Shown here: positions 1 to 5,181 of the stretch, piece after piece
Numbering within the stretch: the stretch's first letter is position 1
How the letters are laid out: every line of letters starts with the position of its first letter
Origin: a virus
Taxonomy: Duplodnaviria; Heunggongvirae; Uroviricota; Caudoviricetes
Length of the DNA stretch: 5,181 bases
Virus record (IMG/VR): IMGVR_UViG_648276660_000016
Reading direction: 5' to 3' (one strand)
Position numbers and translations under genes: made by a program
The notes under the pieces: model-generated
Told to the model about the DNA's origin: nothing
The model's database searches: none
The model's input: only the letters and a program-made list of their open reading frames with translations

Positions 1-1251
1 GTGCTTACCGATACAAAATTAAAAAACCTCAAGCCGCAGGACAAACTGTACAAGGTCTCCGATCGTGACGGGCTGTATGTAGCTGTGCTTACGTCAGGCA
101 CGGTCTCATTTCGTTATGACTACCGTATCAACGGTCGCCGCGAAACACTGGTAATCGGGCAGTATGGGCGTGACGGTATCAGCCTGGCAGAAGCGCGGGA
201 AGAACTGATTGCTGCAAAGAAGCTGCTTAAAGCAGGCCAGTCACCGGCTGCGGCTAAACGTGACGGTATCAAAAAGATTCGTGGTGCCGAAACGTTTGCG
301 GTACATACCGACAGTTATATGAAACACGTCATCCTGGCTGAAAGTACCCGCGCAATGAAGCAGGCAGTGATCGACCGTGACATACTTCCGGTTCTTGGCA
401 ACAAAATGATGGCTGAAATTACCACATCGATGGTTCGTGATTTGTGTGACCGGATTGTCGAACGCGGTGGCCGGGCAACAGCAGTGCAGGCCAGGGAGAT
501 CATCAGCAGCGTATACCGTCACGCCAATGACCGTGGTCATGGTTTGTTTAATCCTGCGGCTGACATTAAGCCTTCGTCTATCGCCATATTTAAACCACGA
601 GAGCGAACACTGACACCAGAAGAAATTGGCCTGTTCTTCCGCACGTTGGATGCCATTGGTGCTATGGGCACTATGAAAATGGCTTTAAAACTGGTGCTTA
701 TCACTATGGTTCGTAAGGGCGAATTCACCAATGCAACGTGGGATGAAATAGATTTTAAAAAATGGACATGGACAATTCCTTCAGACCGCATGAAGGGAAG
801 CCGGGCGCATGTTATTTACCTGCCTAAACAGGCTCAGGATATATTGGTCGGGTTGCAGATGTGCGCTGGTGGAAGTGAATATCTGGTTCCTGGTCGTTAC
901 AATTTCCGGAAGCCATTATCTAATGCCGCGCTGAACTCTCTGATCGACAGAACGGTGAAAATAATAAATGAAGATGGTGAGCATATTCAGGATTTCACCG
1001 TACACGATATGCGCCGTACAGCCAGTACGTTGTTGCATGAGGCTGGTTATCCTTCAGACTGGATTGAAAAGGCTCTGGCACATGAGCAGAAAGGTGTGCG
1101 CGCCGTATATAACAAAGCGGAATACGCCAGACAGCGCGCCTACATGTTGCAGCAGTGGGCCGATATGATTGATTCCTGGATTAACGGGGAGCATACGGAT
1201 CTGATTCCGTTCTCCCCGTCGAAGTTTGAGAAGTGGATGGCGGGGGAATAA
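1..1251 (+). CDS. int: Phage integrase, tyrosine recombinase of the P4/CP4-57 (IntA-like) type; N-terminus at window edge, possibly 5'-partial
   Basis: 416-codon ORF in frame 1 ending at TAA 1249-1251. N-terminal LTDTKLKNLKP...YRINGRRETLVIGQYG resembles the P4-type integrase arm-binding N-domain. C-terminal catalytic region carries HDMRRT (H-x-x-R box) and a distal YNKAEYARQR tyrosine region. The ORF begins with GTG at base 1, so the true start may lie just upstream of the window. Confidence 0.9.
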   Translation: MLTDTKLKNLKPQDKLYKVSDRDGLYVAVLTSGTVSFRYDYRINGRRETLVIGQYGRDGISLAEAREELIAAKKLLKAGQSPAAAKRDGIKKIRGAETFAVHTDSYMKHVILAESTRAMKQAVIDRDILPVLGNKMMAEITTSMVRDLCDRIVERGGRATAVQAREIISSVYRHANDRGHGLFNPAADIKPSSIAIFKPRERTLTPEEIGLFFRTLDAIGAMGTMKMALKLVLITMVRKGEFTNATWDEIDFKKWTWTIPSDRMKGSRAHVIYLPKQAQDILVGLQMCAGGSEYLVPGRYNFRKPLSNAALNSLIDRTVKIINEDGEHIQDFTVHDMRRTASTLLHEAGYPSDWIEKALAHEQKGVRAVYNKAEYARQRAYMLQQWADMIDSWINGEHTDLIPFSPSKFEKWMAGE

Positions 1252-1254
1252 CGT

Positions 1255-1449
1255 TTAATTATTCTGCTGATTTTCTTCCATCTCGGCTTCTGCTGCCAGT
1301 GATTCAATTTTATCTGTGAATATTGCTGACAGTGTTGCAAATTCAGCATCAGTGACAGCGGGAATTGGAACAAACCTGATCCCGCTGTGTGCAAGCATGT
1401 TTGCAGTTTCAAGGCATTTCCTTAAATCTGATGGTGATGCCCTGTTCAT
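1255..1449 (-). CDS. Small hypothetical protein (64 aa) with acidic C-terminus (…AEAEMEENQQNN)
   Basis: ATG at 1449-1447 overlaps the methyltransferase stop (ATGA overlap, 1446-1449). SD-like GGGAG sits 8 nt upstream on the - strand. Stop is at 1257-1255, 3 bp from the integrase stop. No recognisable domain; could still be a spurious frame. Confidence 0.4.
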   Translation of the reverse strand: MNRASPSDLRKCLETANMLAHSGIRFVPIPAVTDAEFATLSAIFTDKIESLAAEAEMEENQQNN

Positions 1450-2096
1450 GCTGCACGCTCCCGCCCCTGGTTGTCTGTTGGTGACAGCGGAGCATTGCTG
1501 AATGCATTTGTTAATCTGGCAATATCCAACGCGTATCCAGGGTGTAGTTGCACTGCCGGGTCTTCGCACTGATTACCCCAAACATCGAAACCATGAGACG
1601 ACTGGCGGGCGAACAGTTCAATGCGAGAAACATCGCCTAACAATTGCACAAGTTTTTCACGAACGATATCTGGTTTTCTTGAATGCTCAAGCCGCGGTGC
1701 GGTAAATGACTGAACGATCCCTGCATTAATGCGCGTAGGTAGTTTTCCCTTTACTGCAAACAGGCAATCTTCACTATTGGCGCGAGTCATGTGACCCATA
1801 CCCATAACCAGTTTATCTGGTTGTCGACTACCACATTTTATCCACGTGAATCCCTTCATGGTCATCAGACGGAATCCCCAGGCCTCAACAACTTTTAGTG
1901 CTTCGAGTGGTTGTGTTGGCACCCACCACATGGCCAACAGACAGTTTTCATCGGCCAAATCCCACACAGGAAGGCGGCAGATATCCAGCACACTCATAAC
2001 CGGATATTTAAAACCGGCACCGCGATTACCATCTGCGGCTTTGTCCCGGTATACCCAGGGTGGATCTGCATAGATTAGTGTGTATTTCTTAGTCAT
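1446..2096 (-). CDS. MT-A70-family DNA N6-adenine methyltransferase (phage orphan MTase)
   Basis: N-terminal MTKKYTLIYADPPW carries the DPPW catalytic motif (codons at 2066-2055). Later FARQSSHGFDVWGNQ matches the usual C-terminal end of phage MT-A70 enzymes, followed by a ~39-aa extension. ATG 2096-2094 is embedded in the stop region of the upstream ORF (8-nt overlap). An alternative GTG start at 2108 is possible. Confidence 0.85.
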   Translation of the reverse strand: MTKKYTLIYADPPWVYRDKAADGNRGAGFKYPVMSVLDICRLPVWDLADENCLLAMWWVPTQPLEALKVVEAWGFRLMTMKGFTWIKCGSRQPDKLVMGMGHMTRANSEDCLFAVKGKLPTRINAGIVQSFTAPRLEHSRKPDIVREKLVQLLGDVSRIELFARQSSHGFDVWGNQCEDPAVQLHPGYALDIARLTNAFSNAPLSPTDNQGRERAA

Positions 2097-2388
2097 AAAC
2101 CACCCCACAACATCCTATGCCGCTATAGTCGCCACGGCGAAGGCCGTTACCTTTTGTGATACATTGGTCCCTGCGAACCGCGATCCTTGCACGCTCAACA
2201 TCACCAGAAGCAACATCCATACACTGAAGCCAAAGGTGAGCGGCAATGCGGAACTGCCCTTTTTTCTCTCTTTCAATCGCGCGTTTTTCGATCTCTATCG
2301 CCGCAGGAGTAACGGCGACAATCTTTGACGGACTGCGCATTGAAACCTTGTTCATGTGATATTTTTCAAGTCGGCTTAACTTTCTCAC
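2089..2388 (-). CDS. Hypothetical protein (99 aa), charged N-terminal half, Cys-containing C-terminus
   Basis: ORF on the operon strand whose stop TAA (2091-2089) overlaps the methyltransferase start. GTG start at 2388 is preceded by GAGAGGG about 9 nt upstream; an alternative ATG at 2355 lacks an SD. No domain recognised by eye. Confidence 0.5.
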   Translation of the reverse strand: MRKLSRLEKYHMNKVSMRSPSKIVAVTPAAIEIEKRAIEREKKGQFRIAAHLWLQCMDVASGDVERARIAVRRDQCITKGNGLRRGDYSGIGCCGVVYD

Positions 2389-2497
2389 TTAATCCAACCC
2401 TCTCTGAAAATTAATGCCAGCAGATAAAGCCATGCTGAAACAGAGGCCAGGAATAAGTACCATCCTGACCATTTGCTCCAGTGCCTTAGCAGCACAC

Positions 2498-2746
2498 TCA
2501 TGCCGCGTTGCTCACGGGACGATATACACGTTGCTGAACAGGAGGTTTTTTACCCTGGAACTCTGCCGGGCTTGCTGCCTGACGTTCATCAAGCCAACGC
2601 TCAACTTCATCACGGTTCCATGCGCAGCGTTTATCGGTGATATACCAGCGTTTAGGAAATTCCCCTGCGCGCTCCATACGGTCGATAGTGCTCCATGACA
2701 GTGGAACCACCGCCAGGAGTTCCTTCTTACCTAATGCACCTTTCAT
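2498..2746 (-). CDS. AlpA/excisionase-family helix-turn-helix DNA-binding protein (candidate recombination directionality factor or transcriptional regulator)
   Basis: 82-aa ORF with ATG at 2746-2744 and SD GAGAGG 5 nt upstream. LLAVVPLSWSTIDRMERAGEFPKRWYITDKRCAWNRDEVERWLDER fits the AlpA/Xis winged-HTH pattern (S-x-S-T-I-x-R ... FP ... W ... E-W). Followed by a 26-aa low-complexity tail. Confidence 0.75.
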   Translation of the reverse strand: MKGALGKKELLAVVPLSWSTIDRMERAGEFPKRWYITDKRCAWNRDEVERWLDERQAASPAEFQGKKPPVQQRVYRPVSNAA

Positions 2747-2768
2747 AAATACCTCTCTTGGTTGCAGT

Positions 2769-2787
2769 GCGGCGCGCGTGGCGCCGC
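2769..2787. repeat. GC-only inverted repeat GCGGCGC-gcgtg-GCGCCGC (7-bp stem, 5-nt loop) in the annealase/AlpA intergenic spacer
   Basis: Perfect complementarity read directly from the sequence. It lies 8 nt past the annealase stop and about 10 nt before the AlpA-like SD on the - strand transcript. No U-tract follows in either orientation. Confidence 0.5.
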
Positions 2788-2795
2788 GGTGGTGG

Positions 2796-3737
2796 TTACA
2801 TAGATGTTTCGTTTAATTCTTCCCGACGAACGCTGTAAACGTCGGTGGCTTTTGCCAGCAGTTCGTCATCATCTGAAAGTTTTTGTGCAATGTATTTGTA
2901 AGCCTTATCCAGTTCGGAGACAGTGCTGTAATTCATCGCTGCGCTGGTAAAGGCCATCAGCATTTCTTCTGGATCACGGCTGTCCGATTTACGCGTTTGC
3001 TCATCAGGCTTTTTCGCTGGTTTAGCGTTGATCAGACTGTTCATTCCCGCAGCAGTGGTCGTTTGCGGAGTAATGTCTCGCTCAACGCGCGGTGCCGTTT
3101 CCTGTAATTCGTCTGGGGTGTAGACGCCCATGATTACGTCAGGACAGTGCAGGCGAGACCAGCGTTTTGTCGCAAGGTATGCGAGTTGTTGTTTCGGATC
3201 ACTGGCCCAAAGTGTGGAGTTTCTTACCTGTGCTTGAGACAGCATTAACTCAAGCACTCGAGGTTGATCCTCGCCCTTCATGGTTGCCCATACGCGAACA
3301 CCGCAGCCTTCTTCGTCTTTTAGAGTCCAGCCTGGTGCGATATATGGATTGCCGTTTTTGGATGTTTTCTCAACAAACTTACCGATCACGCGTTCCCACG
3401 GCCCGAACCACTCGTAGTTGATGCGATCTTTTGTTGGCGACATCGTTGAGATAACTGCGTTTACTAATTGGGCTTCATAACCTAGCGTGCCGTTCACAAC
3501 ATGGGTTTTCTGAGCCACGGCAAACGGGTTCATTCCCCACTGCGCAGCCTGCATTGCCACGGCCATGCAATCAGCTGGTTTCCCGGCGAGGTGCGCCGGT
3601 ACCGTTACGCGGCTTTGCGCCATTACCTCGGCGAATTTCATCAGTTGGTTCAAGCCGTCTGGGCTGAAAATAGTTGCAGCAGTTCCAGCGATTGCTGTGT
3701 CTACTGGTGCGTTGATGTTTGCGATGTCGTTGCTCAT
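2796..3737 (-). CDS. Red-beta/RecT-family single-strand annealing protein (phage recombinase)
   Basis: Motifs align by eye with lambda Bet: QWGMNPF (Bet QYGLNPW); W-x-S-x-PK...RL...G-V-Y-x-x-D-E (Bet GPWQSHPK...ARLAFGFAGIYDKDE); and ERDITP (identical in Bet). ATG at 3737-3735 overlaps the exonuclease stop (ATGA) and has AGGA about 9 nt upstream. The ORF-track GTG start at 3764 lacks an SD. Confidence 0.85.
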   Translation of the reverse strand: MSNDIANINAPVDTAIAGTAATIFSPDGLNQLMKFAEVMAQSRVTVPAHLAGKPADCMAVAMQAAQWGMNPFAVAQKTHVVNGTLGYEAQLVNAVISTMSPTKDRINYEWFGPWERVIGKFVEKTSKNGNPYIAPGWTLKDEEGCGVRVWATMKGEDQPRVLELMLSQAQVRNSTLWASDPKQQLAYLATKRWSRLHCPDVIMGVYTPDELQETAPRVERDITPQTTTAAGMNSLINAKPAKKPDEQTRKSDSRDPEEMLMAFTSAAMNYSTVSELDKAYKYIAQKLSDDDELLAKATDVYSVRREELNETSM

Positions 3738-4555
3738 ATGTACATATCCTGTTTGCGTGCCCACTCAGGGCGTTTAATGATTTCCACACCGCCCCATTCA
3801 TCATTGATGCGGCATTCGTGATAGGTATTCAGATCCCGGCGGAACAGAGCGTGCCCGGCATCGACATCCTGCGCATCCAGCTCGAACACGCGTACCGGAT
3901 ACCGACCACAATCAATGCTTTCGCTCACGGCAAGAAAGAAAAAACCATGCGGCTGACCAGTAACCCTCATTGCGCCTTCGCGGTACATTGCGTCCTGCAC
4001 GTGGTAGCGGAATTCCTCGATGTGGCGTGCAAAACGGTCCATATCTGCAACCTTTTTCACGTCGACGATCACGTTGTGCTCGTTCAGCCATTTGTCTGGA
4101 CGAATTCGGCACAACTCCCCCGTCTCTTCATCGTTCCAGTACATTGATGCTTCGCAGTAACCAGGTGCTTCCAGCATCCAGCGTGCCGCCGGGTGAGCCA
4201 TTGCGCTATCACGCATCAGCTCCAGTTTCCGCCACTGCTCGGCATCAAGTACCGTAATCCCCATATCCGCCACATCACGAAGAAATTCCTCTTCGTCAGC
4301 TTTACCTTGTTTCGTCCGACGATCGAATTTCGGTGAAACAATGAAGCGTTTGTCGAACTCTCCAGGCTCCAGAAGCAGACAGTGCAATGCGGTTCCCATA
4401 TCCAGTGCAGACTTTTTCTCTTCGTCTTCTGGTGCTGCCTGAACCCATTTAAGAAGCGCCGGATTCTTGGCAACCATGTCCAGTTGCGACTTACTCACGC
4501 CGTCACCGGCGTGGTAGTCTTCGTTGCTGATGTCGAAATAAATTCCCGGTTTCAT
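3734..4555 (-). CDS. Putative PD-(D/E)XK exonuclease, RecE/YqaJ-like short form, partner of the annealase
   Basis: 273-aa ORF immediately upstream of and translationally coupled to the annealase. Contains RIRPD...NVIVDVKKV, consistent with a PD-(D/E)xK nuclease core. SD AGAGGGA lies about 7 nt upstream of ATG 4555-4553. Exact family (RecE C-terminal domain type versus YqaJ type) was not resolved without a profile search. Confidence 0.75.
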   Translation of the reverse strand: MKPGIYFDISNEDYHAGDGVSKSQLDMVAKNPALLKWVQAAPEDEEKKSALDMGTALHCLLLEPGEFDKRFIVSPKFDRRTKQGKADEEEFLRDVADMGITVLDAEQWRKLELMRDSAMAHPAARWMLEAPGYCEASMYWNDEETGELCRIRPDKWLNEHNVIVDVKKVADMDRFARHIEEFRYHVQDAMYREGAMRVTGQPHGFFFLAVSESIDCGRYPVRVFELDAQDVDAGHALFRRDLNTYHECRINDEWGGVEIIKRPEWARKQDMYI

Positions 4556-4851
4556 GCCGCGTCCCTCTGCCCATCAAGCTGATCAGCCAGATCCCAGCGG
4601 GCGATAATTGCCATTGCCTCGCGCCGGTAGGCATCCATTAGTTCTTCGAACTCAGGGCTGTCTTTAGCGGCCTCCAGTACTTCCTGGCGAACGCCTTTAA
4701 CTGTTACAACGTCGAAAGTTGATGCCAGTTGATGAAGCCGGATACTCTCAATCAGTTCAACTTGTCGGTCATATAGCTGTTCTGACAGACGGTAGTCCTT
4801 GTCGAATGCCAGCATGATTTTTTGAAGATTTTTCTGCTGATTAACGTTCAT
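4552..4851 (-). CDS. Hypothetical protein (99 aa), predicted helical; unknown accessory of the recombination module
   Basis: ATG at 4851-4849 is preceded by a strong SD GGGAGGG about 7 nt upstream. Its stop overlaps the exonuclease start (ATGA at 4552-4555). The ORF-track start at 4866 is an ATG lying inside the SD and is less likely. Confidence 0.65.
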   Translation of the reverse strand: MNVNQQKNLQKIMLAFDKDYRLSEQLYDRQVELIESIRLHQLASTFDVVTVKGVRQEVLEAAKDSPEFEELMDAYRREAMAIIARWDLADQLDGQRDAA

Positions 4852-4853
4852 TA

Positions 4854-5006
4854 TCAGCCCTCCCATATCTCGTTATCGTTGGCCACATCGCGAGCTTCTT
4901 TGCTGACGAAAGCCCACTTAATGCCTTCCTGTAAGGTGCGGAACTTCCAGCTCATGAATCCGCATGCAGTAACGCAGTACCAACCGTTGATGATTTTCCA
5001 CTGCAT
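4854..5006 (-). CDS. Small Trp-rich hypothetical protein (50 aa, MQWKIINGWYCVTACGFMSWKFRTLQEGIKWAFVSKEARDVANDNEIWEG); absent from the ORF track
   Basis: Translated by hand from the - strand. ATG at 5006-5004 with SD GAGGT (5019-5015) 8 nt upstream. Stop TGA at 4856-4854 lies 2 nt before the next gene's ATG, and that gene's SD is embedded in this ORF's last codons. It is the first ORF downstream of the predicted promoter. Confidence 0.45.
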   Translation of the reverse strand: MQWKIINGWYCVTACGFMSWKFRTLQEGIKWAFVSKEARDVANDNEIWEG

Positions 5007-5025
5007 AACTTGTTACCTCGGTCTG

Positions 5026-5040
5026 TTACCGTTGAGGTAA
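5026..5040. promoter_or_regulatory. Operator-like inverted repeat, site A: TTACC-gttga-GGTAA
   Basis: Perfect 5-bp arms with a 5-bp spacer. Abuts the -10 hexamer and covers the predicted TSS. Same half-site as site B. An extra TTACC half-site lies at 5013-5017 inside the direct repeat TGTTACC (5011-5017 and 5024-5030). Confidence 0.45.
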
Positions 5041-5068
5041 TAATTATGCGTATATGGTTTGATGTCAA
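5040..5068 (-). promoter_or_regulatory. Putative sigma70 promoter for the leftward operon: -35 TTGACA (5068-5063), 17-bp spacer, -10 AATTAT (5045-5040)
   Basis: Perfect -35 consensus read on the - strand. The -10 matches 4 of 6 positions, including the conserved A at position 2 and T at position 6. Predicted TSS is near 5033, giving a 5' UTR of about 27 nt to the first ATG. Not verified experimentally. Confidence 0.45.
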
Positions 5069-5086
5069 TAGATATGAGTTAAAAAA

Positions 5087-5103
5087 ATTACCCGTTAGGT
5101 AAT
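5087..5103. promoter_or_regulatory. Operator-like inverted repeat, site B: ATTACC-cgtta-GGTAAT
   Basis: Perfect 6-bp arms with a 5-bp spacer, 17 bp overall. Lies about 20 bp upstream of the -35 hexamer. Centre-to-centre distance to site A is 62 bp. Confidence 0.45.
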
Positions 5104-5148
5104 CGAATAGGCAATAAAAAAGCCCCCCCAAAGCGGCGGTTCTTCTTT

Positions 5149-5181
5149 AAAAAAAAATTTTTTTTTTTTTTTTTTTTTTTT
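5149..5181. repeat. Homopolymer tract A9 followed by T24, running to the end of the window
   Basis: Read directly: a at 5149-5157, t at 5158-5181. Preceded by a C7 run at 5123-5129. Nature unknown; see findings. Confidence 0.9.

What the first reader, a model, noticed from the sequence alone, without database searches (positions are those of the whole stretch)
4854..5006. Unlisted 50-aa Trp-rich ORF as first gene of the operon
The ORF is below the length cutoff of the supplied track but has a good SD (GAGGT, 8-nt spacer), is on the operon strand, and ends 2 nt before the next gene with that gene's SD inside its last codons. It has 5 Trp in 50 residues, a C-x3-C pair, and a short hydrophobic stretch (IINGWYCVTACGFMSW). 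First-position small genes of phage early-left operons are often host-takeover or toxic factors (Kil-like or cIII-like roles), but I see no convincing similarity to a named protein. The competing + strand ORF 4822-5040 has a TTG start and no SD.
Basis: inference. Interest (0 to 1): 0.6.

Follow-up and report, generated by a model that had tools for sequence, protein, structure and literature searches.

The report
Conserved 50-residue phage early gene
The 50-codon ORF is a real, strongly conserved protein-coding gene, already annotated as hypothetical protein gp39 of phage phiV10, and it is the first gene behind the repressor-controlled early-left promoter of a common enterobacterial prophage; what it does is still unknown.

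Summary
The ORF at 4854-5006 (-) exists exactly as described, and comparative data show it is a genuine gene. All 246 related loci keep the frame open at 47-54 aa, across 86 distinct DNA versions. Variation is concentrated at third codon positions, and median dN/dS is 0.15 (0.08 for codons 1-25). The GAGGT Shine-Dalgarno is almost universal.

The gene is not new. The protein is 100% identical to phiV10 gp39 (YP_512294.1, noted as similar to epsilon15 gp37). It matches PHROG 898 (unknown function) end to end. RefSeq annotates it as "hypothetical protein" in 558 of 5,426 complete E. coli genomes.

"First gene of the operon" is supported. The gene follows the repressor gene's terminator, the only sigma70-like promoter in the window, and two TTACC-N5-GGTAA operators. 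The same motif occurs in the repressor/cro intergenic region of phiV10.

The Cys pair and most of the Trp residues are not conserved in distant relatives. The "hydrophobic stretch" is predicted to be beta-strands rather than a membrane helix. The predicted fold is three strands plus a helix (pLDDT 73) and matches no characterised family.

Function remains unknown. The best guess is a small soluble early protein that acts by binding a conserved partner. This is an ordinary, already catalogued gene of modest interest.

The parts
4854..5006 (-). 50-aa protein-coding gene (phiV10 gp39 / epsilon15 gp37 family, PHROG 898), stop codon included
   Evidence: ORF. 100% identical to phiV10 YP_512294.1. 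phrog_898 E=1.9e-38 over 50/50 positions. Frame open in all related loci. Codon-position variation 20/18/38 and median dN/dS 0.15.
5015..5019 (-). Shine-Dalgarno GAGGT, 8 nt before the ATG
   Evidence: Read from the sequence. GAGGT is present in 105 of 109 distinct upstream versions, with a spacer of 8 nt (68) or 4 nt (31).
5040..5068 (-). sigma70-type promoter TTGACA-17-AATTAT (PL-like)
   Evidence: It is the only promoter-like site in the whole window (1 found against 6.0 expected). It is conserved in type-A relatives.
5026..5040 (.). operator-like palindrome TTACC-N5-GGTAA abutting the -10 hexamer and the transcription start region
   Evidence: Perfect match. There are 2 sites in the window against 0.09 expected, and 0 of 200 shuffles reach 2. 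The same motif occurs 3 times in the phiV10 repressor/cro intergenic region. It is conserved in relatives.
5088..5102 (.). second operator-like palindrome TTACC-N5-GGTAA, 20 nt upstream of the -35 hexamer
5116..5141 (-). remnant of the repressor gene's rho-independent terminator, with its stem corrupted in this window
   Evidence: phiV10 annotates a terminator at the homologous place. Relatives read GCCGCCTTATGGCGGCTTTTTT, whereas the window reads CCGCCGCTTTGGGGGGGCTTTTTT.
4849..4864 (-). junction with the next gene: GGGAGGG inside codons 48-50, TGA, 2 nt, then the ATG of the 99-aa gene
   Evidence: Read from the sequence. The next gene starts -11 to +8 nt from the stop in 108 of 109 distinct versions, whatever that gene is.
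4552..4851 (-). downstream 99-aa gene (phiV10 gp38, PHROG 856, unknown function), immediately upstream of the exonuclease/RecT pair

Best explanation
Shown: 4854-5006(-) is a genuine protein-coding gene, identical to phiV10 gp39. It is the first cistron of the repressor-controlled early-left (PL-type) operon of a phiV10/epsilon15-like (Uetakevirus) prophage. It lies just downstream of the repressor gene's terminator, behind a promoter bracketed by two repressor-type operators. It has its own conserved SD, and its stop abuts or overlaps the start of whatever gene follows. Inferred from this: it is silent in the lysogen, is made immediately on derepression or infection, and is translationally coupled to the next gene. 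Predicted: a soluble mini-domain of about 50 residues, with three beta-strands (2-6, 9-14, 18-22) packed on one helix (25-49). The sheet is under very strong purifying selection and the C-terminal tail is free to vary. Inferred, not shown: because it is too small to be an enzyme, has no metal site or membrane segment and has no consistent charge, it most likely acts stoichiometrically by binding a conserved partner. That partner would be a host protein or a conserved phage early component, not the immunity-specific repressor and not the Rec proteins, since the gene persists unchanged while both of those are swapped. Confidence is about 0.97 that it is a real gene, about 0.85 for the first-cistron and regulatory layout, and about 0.45 for the partner-binding mode of action. 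The score given is for the statement as a whole.
For: Coding:
- All related loci have an open frame of 47-54 aa, across 86 distinct nucleotide versions and 47 distinct proteins.
- Invariant residues use 3-4 synonymous codons each (G8, V12, T13, A14, G16, L25). Variable sites by codon position are 20/18/38.
- pN/pS is 0.28 overall, 0.10 for codons 1-25 and 0.44 for codons 26-45. Median dN/dS is 0.15, 0.08 and 0.21 respectively.
- The other frames give 1.5-1.9, except the wobble-sharing antisense shadow frame at 0.45.
- pS is similar in both halves (0.42 and 0.54), so the N-terminal conservation acts on the protein rather than on the nucleotides.

Identity:
- phrog_898 E=1.9e-38, and phiV10 gp39 is identical.

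Regulation:
- One promoter-like site in the window.
- Operators are significant and shared with the phiV10 OR region.
- A terminator is annotated upstream in phiV10.
- The layout is conserved in 155 distinct upstream regions, in two architectural types.
- The repressor has been shown experimentally to shut off lytic transcription in ZX5 (PMC9782041).

Position:
- The gene always lies 155-230 nt after the repressor gene, across repressors 41-99% identical, while the downstream genes vary.
- The same holds in Serratia and Hafnia relatives.

Coupling and fold:
- The next gene's start lies -11 to +8 nt from the stop in 108 of 109 versions.
- AlphaFold2 on 36 sequences gives pLDDT 72.9 and a beta-beta-beta-alpha topology.
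- The protein is not hydrophobic enough for a membrane helix.
- Net charge across the family is -4 to +4.
Against: There is no expression, proteomic or phenotypic evidence for this gene anywhere. The structural model has only moderate confidence, and a shallower alignment gave a different, helical, low-confidence model. The partner-binding mode is an argument by elimination, and no partner has been identified. The exposed face of the sheet carries conserved polar and basic residues (K4, T13, S19, K21), which would also suit nucleic-acid binding. In the type-B relatives a hairpin lies between the promoter and the gene, so regulation there may be more complex.
Confidence: 0.6

Rival explanations
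1. It is a small nucleic-acid-binding regulator that uses the exposed face of its three-stranded sheet, as AP2 domains and integrase arm-type domains do. It could act, for example, as a second switch regulator or as a modulator of site-specific recombination.
Confidence: 0.15
2. It is the functional analogue of lambda N: an antiterminator made from the first PL cistron that lets early transcription read through downstream terminators.
For: It has the same position as N, as the first gene after the cI-type repressor's terminator and PL. phiV10 annotates a terminator right after the cro-like gene on the rightward side. Type-B relatives have a GC hairpin followed by CTTTC in the leader before the gene.
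Against: There is no arginine-rich motif, and the protein is predicted to be folded rather than disordered. It is half the size of N proteins. It resembles no antiterminator in PHROGs, Pfam or NCBIfam. The scan finds no intrinsic terminator on the operon strand inside the window's operon. No nut-like element was identified.
Confidence: 0.07
3. Its main role is in cis. It is a leader cistron whose translation loads ribosomes onto, or unmasks, the start of the next gene, and the peptide itself is dispensable.
For: The stop/start junction is kept tight (-11 to +8 nt) in 108 of 109 versions, regardless of which gene follows. The next gene's SD lies inside the last codons. The C-terminal codons are the least constrained.
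Against: A pure coupling ORF would not keep its amino-acid sequence. dN/dS is 0.08 over codons 1-25, with abundant synonymous change. Recognisable homologues persist down to 33-45% identity in Serratia and Hafnia. Coupling and a trans-acting protein are not mutually exclusive.
Confidence: 0.08
4. It is a membrane-anchored or lipoprotein factor, for example one that mediates superinfection exclusion. V12-T13-A14-C15 would act as a lipobox and residues 1-14 as a short signal peptide.
For: VTAC fits the lipobox pattern [LVI][ASTVI][GAS]C, and K4 precedes a partly hydrophobic stretch (read from the sequence). The gene lies next to the immunity region, where exclusion genes often sit.
Against: C15 is Ser in 9 of 36 diverse members, and the -1 position becomes I, V or L in others. 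The maximum 19-residue Kyte-Doolittle mean is 0.57, far below a membrane segment. The region is predicted as beta-strands of a folded domain. The promoter is operator-flanked, so the gene should be repressed in lysogens.
Confidence: 0.03
5. The minus-strand ORF is not the functional element: either the + strand ORF 4822-5040 is the real gene, or the region is a non-coding RNA or DNA element.
For: The antisense frame stays free of stops within the ORF in 84 of 86 versions, and its pN/pS of 0.45 is below 1.
Against: That frame shares wobble positions with the sense frame, which makes it a classic shadow ORF. Its length in relatives ranges from 17 to 81+ aa, with TTG starts and unstable ends. It has no SD and no PHROG hit. 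The sense frame has the lowest pN/pS of all six frames. No Rfam family overlaps the ORF. Synonymous divergence is high (pS 0.42-0.54), so the nucleotides themselves are not conserved.
Confidence: 0.01

Closest known systems
phiV10 gp39 (YP_512294.1) / epsilon15 gp37 (NP_848245) / PHROG 898, hypothetical proteins of Uetakevirus phages
   Same: The amino-acid sequence is identical to phiV10 gp39. It has the same place between the repressor gene and gp38, and it matches the PHROG 898 profile over its full length.
   Different: Nothing differs; this is the same gene in a prophage copy. The family has no assigned function and no literature.
Small proteins of the lambda/P22 early-left operon (N, cIII, Kil, Gam, P22 Arf)
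   Same: It is a short gene transcribed leftward from a repressor-controlled promoter next to the immunity region, upstream of the recombination module. Its position is that of lambda N. These comparisons rest on established knowledge of the lambda and P22 gene maps.
   Different: It shows no sequence, profile or fold similarity to any of them. It has no Arg-rich motif (N). It is predicted to be a beta-sheet plus helix rather than an amphipathic helix (cIII) or a helical dimer (Gam). The Gam-like slot just before the exonuclease is occupied by another gene. That gene is phrog_856 here and phrog_1050 'gam-like' in a Hafnia relative.
AP2 / integrase arm-type DNA-binding domains (three-stranded sheet plus helix; Pfam PF13356 Arm-DNA-bind_3)
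   Same: The predicted secondary-structure order is the same. There is also a local resemblance between INGWYCVTACGFMSWKFR and RDGLYVAVLTSGTVSFRYD of this prophage's own integrase.

Membership tests
PHROG 898 (phiV10 gp39 / epsilon15 gp37 family) | Full-length match to the family profile | tested here: met
   E=1.9e-38, residues 1-50 on profile positions 1-50 of 50. 100% identical to phiV10 gp39.
Genuine protein-coding gene | Reading frame intact in diverged relatives | tested here: met
   All genuine loci have an open frame of 47-54 aa, across 86 distinct DNA versions. The few truncated or fused database entries are singletons or deletions.
Genuine protein-coding gene | Purifying selection on the protein (dN/dS well below 1, third-position bias), better in this frame than in the other five | tested here: met
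   Variable sites by codon position are 20/18/38. Median dN/dS is 0.15. The other frames give pN/pS 1.5-1.9, and the shadow frame 0.45.
Genuine protein-coding gene | Direct evidence of translation (ribosome footprints, peptide) | not testable with these tools
   No such data were reachable, and no paper mentions the gene.
First cistron of a repressor-controlled PL-type operon | Promoter with operators that match those of the repressor/cro region, downstream of the repressor gene's terminator | tested here: met
   Promoter at 5068..5040. Two perfect TTACC-N5-GGTAA sites against 0.09 expected. The same motif occurs 3 times in the phiV10 OR region. A terminator is annotated in phiV10. The layout is conserved. 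Repressor binding itself was not tested.
Zinc- or metal-binding small protein (CxxxC) | Metal-ligand cysteines conserved across the family | tested here: not met
   Of 36 diverse members, C11 is kept in 27 and C15 in 26, with Ser in 9. Some members have no Cys at all. There are only two candidate ligands per chain.
Membrane protein (single-pass) | Hydrophobic segment of about 19 residues (Kyte-Doolittle mean above about 1.6) | tested here: not met
   The maximum 19-residue mean is 0.57. The segment is predicted as beta-strands.
Bacterial lipoprotein | Lipobox with an invariant +1 Cys | tested here: not met
   VTAC is present here, but C15 is Ser in 9 of 36 members and the -1 position is non-permissive in others.
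Lambda N-type antiterminator | N-terminal arginine-rich motif and nut (boxA/boxB) sites | tested here: not met
   The N-terminal 25 residues carry only K4, K21 and R23 (read from the sequence). There are no antiterminator family hits. nut sites were not searched for systematically.
Integrase arm-type DNA-binding domain (PF13356) | Significant profile similarity to the domain | tested here: not met
   There is no Pfam hit at E<=10 for 14 members. hhalign of the family against a 34-sequence arm-domain profile gives probability 1.5% and P=0.035 over 18 columns.
AP2-like fold | Structural match clearly above unrelated folds | tested here: inconclusive
Gam / GamL anti-RecBCD proteins | Sequence or profile similarity to Gam-like families | tested here: not met
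   The 50-aa protein hits only phrog_898. The gam-like family phrog_1050 is a different gene at a different position in a Hafnia relative.
Trp-codon attenuation leader peptide | Clustered regulatory Trp codons with alternative terminator/antiterminator hairpins, and a peptide sequence that is otherwise unconstrained | tested here: not met
   The Trp codons are dispersed (3, 9, 20, 31, 48) and only W31 is near-invariant. The whole peptide is under purifying selection. No terminator follows the ORF.
Known RNA family (Rfam) | Match reaching the family threshold | tested here: not met
   There are only two sub-threshold hits, both in the artefactual poly-A/T end at 5105-5181.
Anti-phage defence system component (PADLOC) | Match to a defence-protein model | tested here: not met
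   No hits for the 50-aa protein or its neighbours.

The most novel reading that the evidence does not exclude
The gp39 family may be a so far uncharacterised class of immunity-linked early effector. In this reading a 50-residue beta3-alpha protein, made as the very first product after derepression in phiV10/epsilon15-type phages, binds a conserved host or core-phage target. It might, for example, commit the lysis-lysogeny switch or disable a host function. That would explain why its sheet is nearly invariant across Escherichia, Salmonella, Klebsiella and Citrobacter phages with different immunity and recombination modules.
Probability: 0.3. Interest if true: 0.5.

Novelty: already known. Interest (0 to 1): 0.25.

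Why it matters
A second such gene lies in the same window: the 38-aa membrane protein at 2385-2501.

Biologically, the gene is present in about 10% of complete E. coli genomes. It is the first thing these prophages express on induction, and nothing is known about it. A cheap deletion and overexpression experiment in phiV10 or ZX5, which are both culturable and have a characterised repressor, could assign a function to a widespread family.

It does not open or answer a long-standing question, and nothing about its sequence or context would surprise a phage specialist.

Tried and rejected
- **Named-family assignment.** Pfam, NCBIfam, PADLOC and a PDB sequence search found nothing, using both the single sequence and the profile, up to E=10. 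The best PDB sequence hits (mucolipin-2, E 0.31) are chance.
- **Structure.** The first AlphaFold run on 14 close sequences gave pLDDT 54 and an all-helical model, which I discarded. The 36-sequence run gave pLDDT 73.
- **Integrase arm-domain homology.** I noticed this by eye. hhalign finds the same alignment but at probability 1.5-1.8%, with no improvement from a 34-sequence arm-domain profile. Rejected as unsupported.
- **Domain fusions.** The 1,929-aa hit is a tandem-repeat artefact. The 92-aa form is a deletion that fuses the ORF to the 38-aa membrane protein. The 93-aa forms are upstream start miscalls through the type-B leader.
- **GamL lead.** The neighbouring 99-aa protein shows no BLASTP similarity to the Hafnia gam-like protein. 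The local Pfam copy lacks PF28165, so its membership remains untested.
- **Co-variation.** I compared gp39 subtypes with repressor type and with gp38 type by eye on the table. The same gp39 subtype occurs with repressors of 42% and 78% identity and with gp38 of 45-50% and 90-92% identity, so no partner could be inferred.
- **Literature.** Nothing was found under PhiV10p39, YP_512294, epsilon15p37, NP_848245 or phrog_898. One search was too broad and returned only irrelevant papers.
- **SD-sequestering hairpin.** TTACCTC...GAGGTAA would occlude the SD, but its left arm lies at or upstream of the predicted transcription start, so it is probably not in the mRNA (inference coordinates).

Full report
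**1. What is in the window**

The 5,181-nt window is the left arm of a phiV10/epsilon15-like (Uetakevirus) prophage. A P4-type integrase lies on the + strand (1-1251). The minus strand carries one leftward gene string:
- the 50-aa ORF (4854-5006);
- a 99-aa gene (4552-4851, PHROG 856);
- a PD-(D/E)XK exonuclease (DUF3799, 3734-4555) and RecT (2796-3737);
- an AlpA-type regulator, a 38-aa ORF and a PerC-like activator;
- an MT-A70 methyltransferase and a DUF1382 protein.

Megablast places the right end of the window at 96-99% identity in phiV10, EC.W1-9, TL-2011b, ZX5 and other E. coli phages.

**2. Checking the observation**

- ORF 4854..5006(-), 50 aa;
- GAGGT at 5019..5015 with an 8-nt spacer;
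- TGA at 4856..4854, then 2 nt, then the ATG of the 99-aa gene at 4851..4849, with GGGAGGG inside codons 48-50;
- five Trp, C11-x3-C15, and the stretch IINGWYCVTACGFMSW.

An ORF of this size is not remarkable in itself. The window has 37 ORFs of >=50 aa in six frames, so the question has to be settled by comparison with relatives.

**3. Is it a gene?**

It is, for the following reasons.

(a) It matches PHROG 898 over all 50 residues (E=1.9e-38). It is 100% identical to the annotated phiV10 protein gp39, YP_512294.1, whose note reads 'similar to epsilon15p37'. It is also annotated in EC.W1-9, PAT1 and ZX5. RefSeq calls it 'hypothetical protein' in 558 of 5,426 complete E. coli genomes.

(b) I collected about 250 loci from GTDB genomes and IMG/VR. 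All genuine ones carry an open frame of 47-54 aa, across 86 distinct nucleotide versions and 47 distinct proteins.

(c) Variation is that of a coding sequence. Variable sites by codon position are 20/18/38, and 9/3/19 in codons 1-25. Invariant residues such as G8, V12, T13, A14, G16 and L25 each use three or four synonymous codons.

(d) Nei-Gojobori pN/pS is 0.28 overall, 0.10 for codons 1-25 and 0.44 for codons 26-45. Median dN/dS is 0.15, 0.08 and 0.21 respectively. Four of the other five frames give 1.5-1.9.

(e) Synonymous divergence is similar in both halves (pS 0.42 and 0.54). The near-invariance of the N-terminal half is therefore selection on the protein, not on an overlapping RNA or DNA element. 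No Rfam family overlaps the ORF.

(f) GAGGT precedes the ATG in 105 of 109 distinct upstream versions.

**4. The competing + strand ORF (4822-5040)**

This ORF is in the antisense frame whose wobble positions coincide with those of the sense frame. That explains why it tends to stay open and why its pN/pS is only 0.45. In relatives its length ranges from 17 to more than 81 aa. It almost always starts at TTG and its ends are not conserved. It has no PHROG match. It is a shadow ORF.

**5. Is it the first gene of the operon?**

This is supported.
- In phiV10 the gene upstream on the same strand is the two-HTH repressor gp40, followed by an annotated rho-independent terminator. Beyond the repressor, a cro-like gene (gp41, PHROG 35) is divergently transcribed.
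- In the window, the only sigma70-like promoter on either strand is TTGACA-17-AATTAT at 5068..5040(-). That is 1 site against 6.0 expected.
- The promoter is bracketed by two perfect TTACC-N5-GGTAA palindromes at 5026-5040 and 5088-5102. The expectation is 0.09, and 0 of 200 shuffles reach two.
- phiV10 has the same two sites plus three more, with 0-2 mismatches, clustered in the repressor/cro intergenic region. This is what one expects of OL and OR.
- The repressor, identical in ZX5 and phiV10, has been shown experimentally to abolish lytic transcription (PMC9782041).

Across 155 distinct upstream regions the layout is conserved in two forms:
- Type A, as here: terminator, operator, -35/-10, operator, SD.
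- Type B, with repressors about 42% identical as in epsilon15: promoter, operator, a leader of about 50 nt with a GC hairpin, operator, SD.

The scan finds no intrinsic terminator on the operon strand inside the operon.

**6. What the gene is linked to**

In every locus the gene lies 155-230 nt after the repressor gene, although the repressors range from 41 to 99% identity. What follows it varies:
- the 99-aa gene directly;
- first a 308-355-aa coiled-coil protein (PHROG 1376, unknown function) or a 146-aa protein;
- other recombination modules;
- in one deleted prophage, the methyltransferase.

Distant homologues in Serratia, Hafnia and others (33-54% identity) keep the same place after an HTH repressor, with one or two small genes interposed in two of the loci. 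Their stop overlaps the start of PHROG 1376, of a gene of about 94 aa, or of an exonuclease fusion.

The next gene's start lies -11 to +8 nt from the stop in 108 of 109 distinct versions. The constant features are therefore the place next to the immunity region and a tight, probably translationally coupled, junction. A particular downstream partner is not one of them. gp39 subtypes do not co-vary with repressor type or with gp38 type.

**7. The protein**

The wider family (64 clusters, all Enterobacterales, all 'hypothetical') shows which features matter:
- G8 and T13 are invariant.
- G16, S19, F22, W31, A32, F33 and A38 are at least 90% conserved.
- Y10, K/R21 and K/R36 are conservatively kept.

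The cysteines are not conserved. C15 is Ser in 9 of 36 members and C11 is replaced in 9. Of the five Trp, only W31 is near-invariant, and W48 occurs in 2 of 36. The C-x3-C pair and the Trp richness are therefore lineage features, not the functional core.

The stretch at residues 5-20 is not a membrane segment, since the maximum 19-residue Kyte-Doolittle mean is 0.57. VTAC resembles a lipobox, but the loss of C15 in relatives rules out a lipoprotein family. Net charge ranges from -4 to +4.

AlphaFold2 on a 36-sequence alignment predicts strands at 2-6, 9-14 and 18-22 and a helix at 25-49 (pLDDT 72.9). A shallower alignment had given an unreliable helical model (pLDDT 54).

Fold searches do not discriminate:
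- Foldseek gives a best E of 0.28 in BFVD and 3.5 in the PDB.

**8. A lead that failed**

The strands resemble the hairpin of the P4-type integrase arm domain, including this prophage's own Int. hhalign reproduces that alignment, but at probability 1.8% against the single sequence. Against a 34-sequence arm-domain profile it is 1.5% (P=0.035). Pfam gives no such hit at E<=10. Homology is not supported.

**9. How it most likely works**

Shown:
- It is a real gene.
- It is the first cistron behind an operator-flanked promoter.
- It has a conserved SD and a tight junction to the next gene.
- The protein is under strong selection, strongest on the sheet.

Inferred:
- It is repressed in the lysogen and made first on derepression or infection.
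- Its translation is coupled to that of the next gene.

By elimination, it is a soluble mini-domain that works by binding something conserved. It has no catalytic size, no metal site, no membrane segment and no consistent charge, and it is independent of immunity type and of the Rec module. I put about 0.45 on a protein partner. The other readings are a nucleic-acid-binding regulator (0.15), a mainly cis-acting coupling cistron (0.08), an N-like antiterminator (0.07), a membrane or lipoprotein factor (0.03), and not this frame or not coding (0.01).

**10. Comparison with what is known, and novelty**

The gene is phiV10 gp39 / epsilon15 gp37 / PHROG 898, so the gene itself is already known and catalogued. 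By position it corresponds to the small early-left genes of lambda and P22 (N, cIII, Kil, Arf), but it resembles none of them. The Gam-like slot before the exonuclease belongs to a different gene. That gene is PHROG 856 here and the 'gam-like' PHROG 1050 in a Hafnia relative, and the two are not detectably related. GamL is the phi80-type anti-RecBCD protein (PMC12315714). No paper mentions the gene.

**11. Verdict**

This is an ordinary, already annotated phage gene of unknown function. Interest is 0.25. The most novel reading still open is an uncharacterised immunity-linked early effector family (probability about 0.3).

Noticed in passing
window 5121-5181: The last ~60 nt are a degraded copy of what relatives have here, namely the 3' end of the repressor gene and its terminator stem. 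The window shows a 24-nt A run, a 9-nt T run and a G7 run, and reads CCGCCGCTTTGGGGGGGC where relatives read GCCGCCTTATGGCGGC. This looks like a low-quality read or contig end, not biology. The sub-threshold Rfam hits (CyaR, CrcZ) fall in this artefact.
   Followed up: yes
window 5026-5040 and 5088-5102; L001 4100-4162: TTACC-N5-GGTAA palindromes are the likely operators of the two-HTH repressor: two at the leftward promoter and three in the repressor/cro intergenic region of phiV10. The same half-sites are used by relatives whose repressors are only ~42% identical.
   Followed up: partly
window 2385-2501 (-): This is a second small gene below a 50-aa cutoff: a 38-aa ORF (MSVLLRHWSKWSGWYLFLASVSAWLYLLALIFREGWIK) between the PerC-like and AlpA genes. 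It overlaps the AlpA stop by 4 nt. By position and length it corresponds to phiV10 gp35, which is annotated as a membrane protein with one C-terminal TM helix.
   Followed up: partly
window 2796-4555 (-); L001 1095-2855: The exonuclease (273 aa) and RecT (313 aa) are separate, overlapping genes here and in EC.W1-9 and PAT1. The phiV10 RefSeq record annotates a single 586-aa 'RecE-RecT fusion'. Either phiV10 really has a fusion or its record carries a missed stop or frameshift.
   Followed up: no
window 4552-4851 (-); L252 4240-4524: The 99-aa gene (PHROG 856, unknown function) sits just before the exonuclease. In a Hafnia relative that slot holds a 94-aa protein assigned to PHROG 1050 'gam-like host nuclease inhibitor' and Pfam GamL. 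The two show no BLASTP similarity, so gp38 may be a non-homologous analogue of an anti-RecBCD protein. This is untested.
   Followed up: partly
L193 3159-4193, L120, L130, L147, L151, L248 5150-6196, L252 3249-4229: In many relatives a 308-355-aa coiled-coil protein rich in Glu, Ala, Lys and Arg (PHROG 1376, unknown function) is inserted directly after the 50-aa gene, with its start overlapping that gene's stop. It occurs from E. coli to Serratia and Hafnia, so it may be ancestral and lost in the phiV10 lineage.
   Followed up: partly
type-B loci, e.g. L173, L190, L007, L154: about -75 to -50 nt before the ATG: Relatives with epsilon15-type repressors have a GC-rich hairpin followed by CTTTC(C/T) between the leftward promoter and the gene (e.g. 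CCACCACTTCGTGG, CCACCGCCGGTGG). The stems differ between lineages while pairing is kept. It could be the repressor transcript's terminator, an attenuator or a nut-like element.
   Followed up: no
window 2768-2790: There is a GC-rich inverted repeat (GCGGCGC-CACGC-GCGCCGC on the minus strand) in the short gap between RecT and the AlpA gene. It has no T-run, so it is not a canonical terminator. This was read from the sequence and is not among the terminator-like sites listed by the scan.
   Followed up: no
window 1-5181: The whole window has only one sigma70-like promoter match on both strands, against 6.0 +/- 2.6 in shuffles. That is consistent with one long leftward transcription unit from 5040 down to about 1255.
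   Followed up: no
L255 4211-4477: One distant relative carries a DNA polymerase III theta-subunit homologue (PF06440) and a 60-aa gene between the repressor and the gp39 homologue. This shows that the repressor-gp39 gap can accept cargo genes.
   Followed up: no
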